From Branchiostoma belcheri (taxonomy: Eukaryota), in NCBI RefSeq assembly GCF_001625305.1, contig NW_017802379.1, positions 4,341,479-4,405,478 of the forward strand: a DNA stretch of 64,000 nt, read 5' to 3'. Shown piece by piece: positions 9,901 through 12,900 of the stretch. Both the position numbers and the translations under genes were made by a program. Numbering within the stretch: position 1 is the first letter of the stretch; every line of letters begins with the position of its first letter. Under the pieces are notes generated by a model that worked only from the letters and a program-made list of their open reading frames with translations, had not been told where the DNA came from and did not search any database.

Positions 9901-12900
9901 CCTGTGTTTGTCAGAGTGTCATATAACAATATACAACCATATCATCTTCTTTGACAAGACGAAAGTTTTATGATCGATCGCCATGGTCAAACATGTTCTA
10001 AGATTGAAGAGGTGAGAAATGATGGCTGTTCTGGAGTTGGAAAGTTGATAGTTTGCGAAAATTAATGTGTTTGCCCCCTTCCTATTTCCTATTGAGTCGA
10101 CCAGTGCTTCACCTCTGTTGCTCCCGTGTCAAGAAGGGTAACAAGGAAGCAAGAGATCACGTAGTGGGTCGACAGGACTTCAAAGCAAAGTTCCCCCACG
10201 CTAGTTATCATTTTCCGGCAGACTTTGGAGCCCCTTCCGGCCAGGAAAATTCTAGAAGTGTAGGAAGTAATGCGGGCTTTGTTTCTAATCTTGGAAGTAT
10301 TTCCCGCGATTTCTCGCGCTGTTGCCGTCTTTAGGTCGGATCGTTTAGGCTATCTCCAGATCAGAAAATTGGAAGACAGTCTTTGTCTTATTCGTGCCCA
10401 TGATAACACGCAATGATCTCTCCTTGTCATGGAAAATGCACATCTTTATCCATAAGAATGAATGGATTCTCCCGGAATTCTGTCACCGCTGATGTCCAAA
10501 TCGCAACTGTTTCTAATACCGTACACGCTTCCAGCGGCGCACGCCAGTGGCCAACTTAAATACCTCACTGTGCACCATGGCCAGGGTCTTCAGTCGGCTG
10601 TAATTTGATTAAAAGCAAAGGGGCGAACTAAAACAACACAAGTATTTGTTACAGTTGGACGAGATCTACAAAAATGTAACAGCCAAGAATTAGTCCATCT
10701 CGCAAAACTGGAGGAGAGTCGTTTCTTCCCTCAATTTATAATTTTCTTTTCCTGTTGTACAAGTTTTTTTTTTAAATATTCCTCACTTTTCTTTGGAAAA
10801 ACATCTTTACTCCAACGATAACTTTGAAAATGGGACAACTTTGATTTGGTCGGAATCGGCTGCAGCTGAACGTGCGGCTATGTACCGTTGAACGCAACTC
10901 TGTCAAATCTCAAAACGTGAACTTGACCGCCGCTGTCAACAAGCCGCCCGACCTCCTCATACAGGTCACTGAGACCGAATGTTAAGCACCCTCAGGCGTT
11001 TGTTATAGAGCCTACCTTGGGGCAACATGAAATTAAACTTCTGTATGCCATAGTATCAAACAATTTTGAGAGAGGGGCGTTCTATTAAAGCTAACGCGCC
11101 TTTTTCAAATGCACTGAGCCGAATTTCTTGCCTGAAGTATGCAAGTGATATATGAGTTAAAGATGGCTATCTCTCTATTTGGCAAAGTATAAGACACTCA
11201 ACCATACTCAAACTTATACCATGTTCTTCAATGACTATAAGCAAGGACACTGTATCTATAAGTATAATGTCCTTGCCGAAAGACTGTAAAATTAGAAGAC
11301 TTTAGATCACTATCTTGTTGGCAGTGGCACAAGTATGCAAAAACGCGTCTAGCGCGACTCCAGAACGAGGAAAATGTCGCCAAGAAACACCAAACCGCGG
11401 CGGCGCACTTCTCGATTGTTACGGTTGGTGTAAGTCACGGCTGCTTTACTCCCGCCACGCGACATAACCAGCCTTAATGAAAACACCCCTCCAGTAGGTC
11501 AGAGGTCAGCCGTTAGAGGCCACGTTCAAAGCCATGCCTCCCCTCCCTATATCACTCACATCTCATTCCGCGCAGACTGCCGTCTCTCAGGGTTAAGCGG
11601 TTGACTTTGAACTTGGGCGGAGCGTGGGAGAGAGCGAGATATGATTTTACAGAGTAGCGTGTTGGGAATTGGCTTATTTCTTTATCAACCAAACTTTATT
11701 GGTCGGATAATTCTTGTACTAAACATTGTCAGGTAAATTTCATGGGTGATGCGATGCCATCTAGCCTCTACCAGGCTTCGGGAAGCGGCTGGATAGAGTA
11801 AAAATCGGTCAAATAGAGAGATAGCATGCCGGGGGACTTGGTCTGCTGGAGAGAACAGTTTGCCGCTCCCATGCGGCAAAATGTACTCTCTAGCGGACCA
11901 ACTCCCAACCGATTTCTACTCTCTCCAGCCGCCTCCGGAAGCCTGGTAGAGGCTAGATGCCACCGTGTGTTAATCCAAGTGCAGGTGTGTTTTTCTGGCA
12001 ACGTAAGCTTTGGGGGAACTTGTAAGTCTTATCAGGTGATTCTGTAAGCCATAGGTTATCTCGTACAGTCCAAACAGTCCGGCAACACCAAAAGACGGAG
12101 CCGCGACATGAAAGAGTTTTAAGTTTCTGTTTTCTTAGCCACAGATGTCCACGGCATATTACACTACAGGAACGACGTGTAGACATCTCATAACAACACA
12201 AGGGTACATGTGCAGTCGTGTCAAGTATAATAGACGTAGGGAAGACTCTGTGATTTTTGATAGGAATCATTGAGCTTTTAAGGTTTAAGCTAAGAAATGG
12301 AGGAGGGTATCTTACTAGTAATATTTCCTTCACTATCACAGGAAAATGAAACGTGTAATGTATACTAGATAAGACTCAATTTTACCTAAATTGTCCCCAA
12401 TAAATGCCCGCTAACGTTTGAAATAACCTTGGGATCTGAAAGAGTATTTCATCTGGCACAAAATTTCCCCGAAACTTTCGTCTATTTGTAGAAGTGAGAG
12501 ATTAACGTCACGTTGGATCAAGTTTAGCCGGGATATATAGACTTCGACTTCCTCAGTACAATGTATGTCATTTACCAGACTACCAATGGGTACGTTTCGA
12601 TCCTTTTGCCTCACATGGCATCATCCAGCAAATATAGATTGGAATCGGAGCTAAACCGCTAACAGTTTTTCGACTTCTTCGAAAACAGGATGAACAACAG
12701 GATGAAATTCACCCACATGAGGATATAGGGCTGAACTTGTCACACTGTACGATCACGACCCCGACTTCCGAGCCATGTTTTTCTTGGCCATTCGTGCGAC
12801 TTTAAAACTTCCCAAATCTGAATCAACAAGGAAACCGAATGTTTGGTTTGACGTCGCGACTTGCGGAATTTTTGGAAATATGCTGGATCCGGAAAGTTGG

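What the first reader, a model, noticed from the sequence alone, without database searches (positions are those of the whole stretch)
11762..11955. MITE family with 9-bp target-site duplications, three copies in 7 kb
Three elements at 11762-11955, 14426-14572 and 18201-18309 share termini TAGCCTCTACCAGGCTT...AAGCCTGGTAGAGGCTA. Each is flanked by a 9-bp direct repeat (GATGCCAYC, GGCTGCTRC, and a perfect GCTTTTATA). A 9-bp target-site duplication points to a Mutator-like or Merlin-like transposase source. The different internal deletions (194, 147 and 109 bp) and intact duplications suggest fairly recent mobilisation. One copy is nested inside the foldback element, so it inserted after it.
Basis: seen in the sequence. 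Interest (0 to 1): 0.6.

Follow-up and report, generated by a model that had tools for sequence, protein, structure and literature searches.

The report
Amphioxus hairpin MITE, 9-bp duplications
Three short non-coding "jumping gene" relics (a palindromic MITE family that duplicates 9 bp of target DNA) sit in the introns of one protease gene of the lancelet Branchiostoma belcheri; they are real but are an ordinary feature of a genome known to be full of such elements.

Summary
The window is Branchiostoma belcheri (amphioxus) DNA. Three copies of one repeat lie at 11762-11955, 14426-14572 and 18201-18309, each flanked by a 9-bp direct repeat (8/9, 8/9 and 9/9 matches). All three are in introns of a minus-strand TMPRSS6-like protease gene.

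For copy 1 the orthologous site in B. lanceolatum and in a B. floridae x B. japonicum assembly is empty and carries a single 9-mer. This establishes insertion with a 9-bp target-site duplication. A second B. belcheri locus holds at least 10 more copies, and 9 bp is again the best-fitting flank repeat.

The full-length element is a near-perfect palindrome of about 205-210 bp with arms of about 100 nt. Copies 1-3 are deletion derivatives. Copy 3 has lost its right arm and keeps only GCTA.

"Recent mobilisation" is only partly supported:
- Copies 1 and 2 are shared by three B. belcheri haplotypes and are 6-20% diverged from the consensus.
- Copy 3 rides inside a foldback insertion that the two other haplotypes lack.

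No autonomous partner was found, so the superfamily is unresolved. Mutator/MuDR-like is favoured and Merlin-like remains possible. hAT is rejected. This is a new member of a known kind, of low interest.

The parts
11762..11955 (.). MITE copy 1, 194 bp. Both termini are perfect and it is a near full-length palindrome. It lies in the 10-kb last intron of the TMPRSS6-like gene.
   Evidence: (I24). DNA hairpin of -75.3 kcal/mol, z = -14.9. Present in three B. belcheri haplotypes. Empty site in B. lanceolatum and in the Bf x Bj assembly.
11753..11761 (.). Left target-site duplication of copy 1, GATGCCATC.
   Evidence: Maps onto the same single 9-mer GATACCGCT of the outgroups as the right duplication.
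11956..11964 (.). Right target-site duplication of copy 1, GATGCCACC.
14426..14572 (.). MITE copy 2, 147 bp. The right terminus has 2 mismatches and the right arm is internally deleted or rearranged. It lies in an intron, and its flanking duplicate ends 46 bp from the exon that ends at about 14627.
   Evidence: Allelic forms in L008 and L009.
14417..14425 (.). Left target-site duplication of copy 2, GGCTGCTAC.
14573..14581 (.). Right target-site duplication of copy 2, GGCTGCTGC. The allele in L008 reads GGCTGCTAC, a perfect 9/9 match to the left copy.
18201..18309 (.). MITE copy 3, 109 bp. It consists of the left arm up to about the centre of the palindrome, then GCTA. The right arm is deleted. 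It lies in the loop of the foldback element.
18192..18200 (.). Left target-site duplication of copy 3, GCTTTTATA.
18310..18318 (.). Right target-site duplication of copy 3, GCTTTTATA (9/9).

Best explanation
These are three deletion derivatives of one family of non-autonomous cut-and-paste DNA transposons (MITEs) of Branchiostoma belcheri.

Structure. The ancestral element is a near-perfect palindrome of about 205-210 bp. It looks like two terminal inverted repeats of about 100 nt joined head to head, with almost nothing between them. It encodes nothing.

Mechanism (inferred). A transposase made elsewhere in the genome recognises the termini (5'-TAGCCTCTACCAGGCTT...). It cuts the target with a 9-bp stagger, and repair of the stagger leaves the 9-bp direct repeat. 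There is a weak preference for targets of the form G-N7-C.

History. After insertion the long palindrome is unstable and loses parts of one arm. This gives the 194-, 147- and 109-bp forms, and different alleles of the same insertion. The insertions postdate the split of B. belcheri from the other sampled Branchiostoma lineages. Copies 1 and 2 predate the common ancestor of the three sampled B. belcheri haplotypes.

Source. The transposase is most likely Mutator/MuDR-like, judged from the 9-bp duplication and the very long terminal repeats. That last step is inference only.
For: Shown:
- Organism. The GPHR exon in the window is 100% identical to the B. belcheri protein.
- Termini are far above chance.
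- 9-bp flank repeats score 8/9, 8/9 and 9/9.
- Empty site for copy 1. It has one 9-mer, GATACCGCT, between conserved flanks ...GATGC and GTGTG... in L003 (B. lanceolatum) and L004 (Bf x Bj).
- Copy 2's duplication is perfect (9/9) in allele L008.
- There are at least 10 further copies in B. belcheri locus L001.
- n=9 is the peak flank match in 6 of 10 two-ended copies, at 6/9 or better. Two of 4 copies of a sister sub-family score 8/9 and 7/9. My estimate of the chance of at least 6/9 is about 0.01 per copy.
- L001 25011-25220 is a 210-bp palindrome with arms about 95% complementary. Copy 1 folds at z = -14.9.
- Copies differ by internal deletions. So do alleles. L008's copy 1 has an extra 10-bp deletion. 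L009's copy 2 keeps a fuller right arm but lacks the left arm and about 95 bp of flank.
- The base next to the terminus is C in 16 of 23 ends. The base 9 positions out is G in 11 of 23.

Literature: MITEs make up about 6.7% of amphioxus genomes (PMC10013865). MuDR makes duplications of 4-10 bp and Merlin of 8 bp (PMC10045372).
Against: - No autonomous element with these termini was seen, so trans-mobilisation and the superfamily are inferred, not shown.
- One L001 copy (10128-10403) fits an 8-bp repeat (7/8) better than 9 bp. Three others have no recognisable duplication.
- The G...C bias allows another reading: termini CTAG...CTAG with a 7-bp duplication. Only copy 3 (GCTTTTATA on both sides) and copy L001 23218 argue directly against it.
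- No excision footprint or insertion polymorphism of the MITE itself was found, so there is no evidence of current activity.
- The genome-wide sample is small, and L001 was chosen because it contains a copy.
Confidence: 0.85

Rival explanations
1. The family is mobilised by a Merlin (IS1016-like) transposase rather than a Mutator/MuDR-like one.
For: From my own knowledge of Feschotte 2004, Merlin elements are reported with 8- or 9-bp duplications. One family member (L001 10128-10403) fits 8 bp at 7/8, so a mix of 8 and 9 bp is conceivable.
Against: Nine bp is the mode in 8 of 14 scored copies and 8 bp in only one. PMC10045372 gives 8 bp as the Merlin value. Terminal repeats of about 100 nt are more typical of Mutator-like elements (own knowledge). 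No Merlin transposase or similarity of termini was tested.
Confidence: 0.2
2. It is an hAT-type MITE. The ends TAG...CTA resemble the hAT YARNG terminus, and the true duplication would be 8 bp.
For: The terminus TAGCC matches 4 of 5 positions of YARNG. L001 10128-10403 has GTGATCAC/GTGATCAT, which fits the hAT target pattern nTnnnnAn.
Against: At n=8 the flanks match in only 1-3 of 8 positions in all three window copies. Only one of ten copies has at least 6/8. The empty site of copy 1 shows that exactly 9 bp were duplicated.
Confidence: 0.03
3. The three copies are not transposon insertions. They would be pieces of a longer local repeat or segmental duplication, or chance palindromes.
For: The copies cluster: 3 in 7 kb here and at least 11 in 27 kb of L001. 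The terminus also occurs as the unit of tandem arrays in L001.
Against: The sequences flanking the three copies are unrelated to each other. Each copy has its own 9-bp duplication. Copy 1 is precisely absent from the orthologous site of two other species. Shuffles give 0.11 expected terminus matches.
Confidence: 0.02
4. The elements are kept because their long hairpins are functional, for example as sources of small RNA or as regulatory structures in the protease gene's introns.
For: The hairpin is very stable at -75 kcal/mol, z = -14.9. Copy 1 sits inside an intronic block conserved at about 82% between species. Copies 1 and 2 are retained in three haplotypes.
Against: No Rfam family matches anywhere in the window. 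The arms decay by different deletions in different alleles and copies, so the hairpin is not preserved. The conserved block exists without the MITE in the other species.
Confidence: 0.03

Closest known systems
Mutator-like (MuDR/MULE) non-autonomous elements and MITEs
   Same: The target-site duplication is 9 bp. The terminal inverted repeats are very long (about 100 nt) and make up nearly the whole element. The insertion signature is cut-and-paste, with a clean empty site.
   Different: No MULE transposase or autonomous partner has been identified. The terminus starts with TAG, whereas the MULE termini I recall from plants and animals are G-rich (memory, not tested). The family is confined, as far as sampled, to B. 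belcheri.
Merlin superfamily MITEs (IS1016-related)
   Same: It is an animal DNA transposon group reported with 8-9-bp duplications. One copy here fits 8 bp.
   Different: The modal duplication here is 9 bp, not 8. The arms are much longer than the Merlin terminal repeats I recall (memory, not tested). No Merlin transposase link was found.
Amphioxus MITEs in general (about 6.7% of Branchiostoma genomes; LanceleTn and ATE-1 families described earlier in B. floridae)
   Same: Same host group and the same class of element: short, palindromic, intronic, abundant and lineage-specific in its amplification (PMC10013865; LanceleTn is mentioned in PMC5802833).
   Different: The sequences of the named families could not be obtained, so identity with any of them is untested. 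No copy of this family was seen in 119 kb of B. floridae, B. lanceolatum and Bf x Bj DNA.
Foldback (FB-like) elements
   Same: The element is almost a perfect inverted repeat with a tiny loop.
   Different: The arms carry no tandem sub-repeats. The size is 0.2 kb rather than kilobases. The neighbouring true foldback at 17121-19558 has 18-bp sub-repeats and unrelated termini.

Membership tests
MITE (non-autonomous class II element) | Short (under about 800 bp) with no coding capacity | tested here: met
   Copies are 109-210 bp. Six-frame peptides of the element found only one marginal hit, in a hypothetical protein model.
MITE (non-autonomous class II element) | Terminal inverted repeats | tested here: met
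   Perfect 17-nt termini in copy 1. Arms of 58 nt at 90% complementarity in copy 1 and about 100 nt in L001 25011-25220. Copy 3 has lost the right arm.
MITE (non-autonomous class II element) | Target-site duplication of fixed length, verified against an empty site | tested here: met
   Nine bp in all three window copies. A single 9-mer sits at the orthologous empty site in L003 and L004.
MITE (non-autonomous class II element) | Many dispersed copies at unrelated sites | tested here: met
   Three copies in the window and at least 10 in L001, on a different contig. The genome-wide count was not obtainable.
Mutator / MuDR superfamily | Duplication of typically 9 bp (range up to 10) | tested here: met
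   The range is cited from PMC10045372.
Mutator / MuDR superfamily | Termini shared with an autonomous element encoding a MULE (MURA-type DDE, C/DxxH) transposase | not testable with these tools
   No tool searches the amphioxus genome by DNA. No long element bounded by these termini occurs in the window or in loci L001-L009.
Mutator / MuDR superfamily | Long terminal inverted repeats (100 bp or more) | tested here: inconclusive
   The arms are about 100 nt. In a palindromic MITE, however, this cannot be told apart from an internal foldback.
Merlin superfamily | Duplication of 8 bp (8-9 bp in the original description) | tested here: inconclusive
   Nine bp in 8 copies and 8 bp in one. This is compatible only with the wider 8-9-bp definition.
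Merlin superfamily | Autonomous partner with an IS1016/IS1595-like DDE transposase and similar termini | not testable with these tools
   Same limitation as for Mutator.
hAT superfamily | 8-bp duplication and a YARNG terminus | tested here: not met
   Flank matches at n=8 are 1-3 of 8 for the window copies. The empty site shows 9 bp. The terminus TAGCC matches 4 of 5 positions.
Named amphioxus MITE families (LanceleTn-1 to -4, ATE-1) or Repbase/Dfam entries | Sequence identity to the published consensus | not tested
   The papers and libraries are not held. The terminus string occurs in none of about 8 million full texts.

The most novel reading that the evidence does not exclude
The family, its sister sub-family and their terminus-plus-flank tandem arrays in L001 might belong to a lineage of 9-bp-duplicating transposons specific to B. 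belcheri, possibly still active. That lineage would have a G-N7-C target preference, and its ends would seed new minisatellites (MITE-to-satellite birth). The transposase might not fall cleanly into MuDR or Merlin.
Probability: 0.1. Interest if true: 0.4.

Novelty: new member of a known kind. Interest (0 to 1): 0.15.

Why it matters
It matters little beyond annotation. It adds one well-documented MITE family to a genome already known to be about 7% MITEs. The family has a consensus of about 205 bp, a 9-bp duplication, a verified empty site and lineage specificity.

Its practical value:
- It can serve as a repeat-masking entry and as a phylogenetic or population marker. It is present in B. belcheri haplotypes and absent at the orthologous site in the other species sampled.
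- It illustrates how long palindromic MITEs decay differently in different alleles.
- The locus shows how much structural polymorphism separates amphioxus haplotypes: a LINE and a foldback are each present in one haplotype only.

Tried and rejected
1. Exact look-up of the LINE ORF2 protein, to fetch allelic DNA: not on record. The same happened for P0122. This was solved through cluster members P0172 and P0173.
2. Literature. Searches for 'LanceleTn' and for the terminus string both gave 0 papers. A guessed DOI and a guessed PMC id for the 2006 amphioxus MITE paper were not held. Neither the ATE-1 paper nor the paper 'Transposon diversity is higher in amphioxus than in vertebrates' was among the results returned.
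3. Six-frame peptides of the MITE against the protein database gave only one marginal hit. That hit nevertheless led to the copy-rich locus L001.
4. A metagenome scan for a 32-nt degenerate terminus pattern gave 0 hits.
5. The MAFFT alignment of copy 1 with the outgroups misplaced the insertion. It was replaced by blastn across the junction and pairwise local alignments.
6. The orthologous site of copy 2 could not be judged, because the intron is not alignable between species near the junction.
7. The empty site of copy 3 could not be obtained, because no second copy of the foldback exists in any fetched locus.
8. Alternative duplication lengths were considered and rejected. Eight bp (hAT or P) fails on the scores. 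Seven bp with CTAG...CTAG termini requires two coincidences in copy 3 and does not explain the G enrichment nine bases out.
9. A Pfam scan of all window ORFs for a transposase was prepared but not run. No further terminus exists in the window, so no autonomous partner with these ends can be there.

Full report
**What the window is.** Only five ORFs of 150 aa or more occur in 64 kb, and there is no tRNA or Rfam match. The window also carries a LINE-type ORF with endonuclease and reverse-transcriptase domains and exons of animal genes. The 308-aa GPHR exon at 43433-44359 is 100% identical to the NCBI protein "Golgi pH regulator-like [Branchiostoma belcheri]". The window is therefore amphioxus nuclear DNA.

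**Checking the observation.**
- The 17-mer TAGCCTCTACCAGGCTT occurs five times at up to 3 mismatches, against 0.11 expected. There are three perfect left ends. One right end is perfect (copy 1) and one has two mismatches (copy 2).
- Copy 3 has no right terminal repeat. It ends ...CGCCGGCTA and keeps only the last 3-4 bases of the element.
- The flanking 9-mers are exactly as reported: GATGCCATC/GATGCCACC, GGCTGCTAC/GGCTGCTGC and GCTTTTATA/GCTTTTATA.
- When flank repeats of 2 to 12 bp are scored, 9 bp is the only length with a high score in all three copies: 8, 8 and 9 matches.
- A sensitive blastn finds no other copy in the window.

**Gene context.** Mapping the B. belcheri protein XP_019621150.1 (TMPRSS6-like: LDL-receptor class A repeats, TSP1 and a trypsin domain) onto the window places its exons on the minus strand. 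They run from 21581 to 14084, with the last exon at 4085-3834.
- All three copies are therefore intronic.
- Copy 1 lies in the 10-kb last intron.
- Copy 2's flanking duplicate ends 46 bp from the exon that ends at about 14627.
- Copy 3 lies in the large intron between the LDLa exons, inside the loop of a 2.4-kb foldback element.

**Proof of insertion and of the 9-bp duplication.** I fetched the orthologous locus from B. lanceolatum (L003) and from a B. floridae x B. japonicum assembly (L004).
- With the MITE and one 9-mer removed, copy 1's flanks align as one continuous block across the junction, at 82-83% identity over 486-645 bp.
- Pairwise alignments show that "left flank plus 9-mer" and "9-mer plus right flank" both map onto one single 9-mer. 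It is GATACCGCT, lying between ...GATGC and GTGTG....
- This is a clean empty site. Exactly 9 bp were duplicated, and the insertion happened on the B. belcheri lineage.
- Copy 2's intron is not alignable between species. No second copy of the foldback was available for copy 3.

**The family elsewhere.** No tool searches the amphioxus genome by DNA. I therefore searched the six-frame peptides of the element against the protein database. The single marginal hit was a B. belcheri hypothetical protein, and it led to locus L001 on another contig.
- L001 holds at least 10 further copies within 27 kb.
- L001 25011-25220 is a 210-bp copy whose two halves are about 95% complementary. The ancestral element is thus essentially two arms of about 100 nt joined head to head.
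- Copy 1 folds into a hairpin of -75 kcal/mol, z = -14.9.
- The alignment of ten copies gives a consensus of about 204 bp. Copies 1 and 3 are 6-8% from it. Copy 2 is about 21% from it, partly because of rearrangement.
- Of ten two-ended copies, six have their best flank repeat at 9 bp with at least 6/9 matches. One fits 8 bp and three have none.
- A sister sub-family in L001 has termini TAGTCTCTACCAGACTA / AGGCCTGGTGGAGGCTA. It also shows 9-bp repeats, at 8/9 and 7/9.
- The base adjoining the terminus is C in 16 of 23 ends, and the base nine positions out is G in 11 of 23. This suggests a weakly palindromic target, G-N7-C.
- The alternative reading (termini CTAG...CTAG with a 7-bp duplication) is less economical, mainly because of copy 3.
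- No copy occurs in 119 kb of B. floridae, B. lanceolatum and Bf x Bj DNA. None occurs in two other B. belcheri loci. The sample is too small to claim absence from those species.

**Age.** Two independent B. belcheri haplotypes of this very locus were fetched: L008 from GCA_025402995.1 and L009 from the B. belcheri half of a hybrid assembly. They are only about 90-94% identical to the window in the introns.
- Copy 1 is present in all three haplotypes with the same two 9-mers. L008 carries an extra 10-bp internal deletion.
- Copy 2 is present in L008 with a perfect 9/9 duplication, GGCTGCTAC on both sides.
- In L009 copy 2 survives only as a right arm. That arm is more complete than the window's, but the left arm and about 95 bp of flank are deleted.
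- These two insertions therefore predate the common ancestor of the three haplotypes, and they have since decayed differently in each.
- "Fairly recent mobilisation" is thus not supported for copies 1 and 2.
- The foldback carrying copy 3 (about 17121-19558) is absent from both other haplotypes. The empty site reads CCCTTCGGCGTAACACACC.
- Copy 3 therefore inserted into foldback sequence. Whether it did so here or in a donor copy elsewhere cannot be decided.

**Mechanism and classification.**
- Shown: terminal inverted repeats, a fixed-length duplication, an empty site and dispersed copies. Together these are the signature of a DDE cut-and-paste transposon mobilised in trans.
- Shown: the internal deletions fit the instability of long palindromes and/or abortive gap repair.
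- Inferred: the superfamily. A 9-bp duplication points to MuDR/Mutator. The literature gives 4-10 bp for MuDR and 8 bp for Merlin (PMC10045372). The original Merlin description allows 8-9 bp (my own knowledge).
- The arms of about 100 nt favour a Mutator-like source with long terminal repeats.
- hAT (8 bp) is rejected.
- No autonomous partner is in the window or in the fetched loci.

**Comparison with what is known.** MITEs are reported to make up about 6.7% of amphioxus genomes and to have amplified recently relative to other DNA transposons (PMC10013865). Named amphioxus MITE families exist (LanceleTn, mentioned in PMC5802833). The finding is therefore a well-supported but ordinary member of a known kind, and it may already sit in repeat libraries that I could not query.

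**Verdict.** Novelty is low, and I score interest at 0.15.

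Noticed in passing
window 5796-9776 (ORF 6415-9738, + strand): A non-LTR retrotransposon with an intact 1107-aa ORF (AP endonuclease, reverse transcriptase and a C-terminal zinc-finger-like motif). The whole 4-kb block is absent from two other B. belcheri haplotypes. Their empty site reads ...CCTCTACACCCATTTCC.... It looks like a recent, polymorphic LINE insertion in the last intron of the protease gene.
   Followed up: partly
window about 17121-19558: A foldback element with arms of about 700 nt at 97-99% complementarity. The arms contain 18-bp tandem sub-repeats, and the loop is 1.1 kb. 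It is absent from haplotypes L008 and L009. Its duplication is ambiguous: 6 bp (TGGGCG) if the ends are TACGAAGG...CCTTCGTA, or 8 bp otherwise. It inserted into a copy of a 50-bp-unit repeat that is also tandemly arrayed in L001 20948-21598.
   Followed up: partly
L001 23812-25030 and L001 16030-16516: Two tandem arrays. The first has about 34 units of 35/38 bp, each made of the first 26-29 nt of the MITE terminus plus 8-9 nt of flank (GTCTGCTCC). It abuts a full-length MITE at 25011-25220. The second has about 13 units of 37 bp built on the terminus of the sister sub-family. These look like MITE ends seeding minisatellites.
   Followed up: partly
L001 3444-3869, 18768-18947, 22519-22699, 15900-16064: A sister MITE sub-family with termini TAGTCTCTACCAGACTA / AGGCCTGGTGGAGGCTA. 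It also has 9-bp flank repeats: CTTACCCTG/CTCACCCTG and GACGATGTC/GACAATGAC.
   Followed up: partly
L001 10001-16860 (gene for P0121, Bbelb_296420): A 537-aa 'hypothetical protein' model with no Pfam domain. It contains a MITE-derived peptide, and its span overlaps three MITE copies, at 10128-10403, 14186-14362 and 15502-15714. This is probably either exonisation or an annotation artefact.
   Followed up: no
window about 11400-12400: Copy 1 sits inside an intronic block that aligns at about 82% identity with the orthologous intron. The alignment covers about 630 bp in B. lanceolatum, and 486 bp plus a separate 127-bp piece in the Bf x Bj assembly. By megablast, only about a quarter of the Bf x Bj locus (L004) aligns to its B. 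belcheri counterpart L009. It may be a conserved non-coding element.
   Followed up: no
window 1-32000 versus L008 and L009: The three B. belcheri haplotypes differ by 6-10% in intron sequence and by several kb-scale indels within one gene. This fits the very high heterozygosity I recall being reported for amphioxus.
   Followed up: no
window 16498-16583: A (CATA)n microsatellite of about 20 units lies within about 5 bp of the LDLa exon mapped to 16588-16752.
   Followed up: no
window 26.4-31.4 kb (minus strand) and 43433-44359 (plus strand): Neighbouring genes are major vault protein and Golgi pH regulator. The order MVP, then protease is conserved in B. lanceolatum and in the Bf x Bj assembly.
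   Followed up: no
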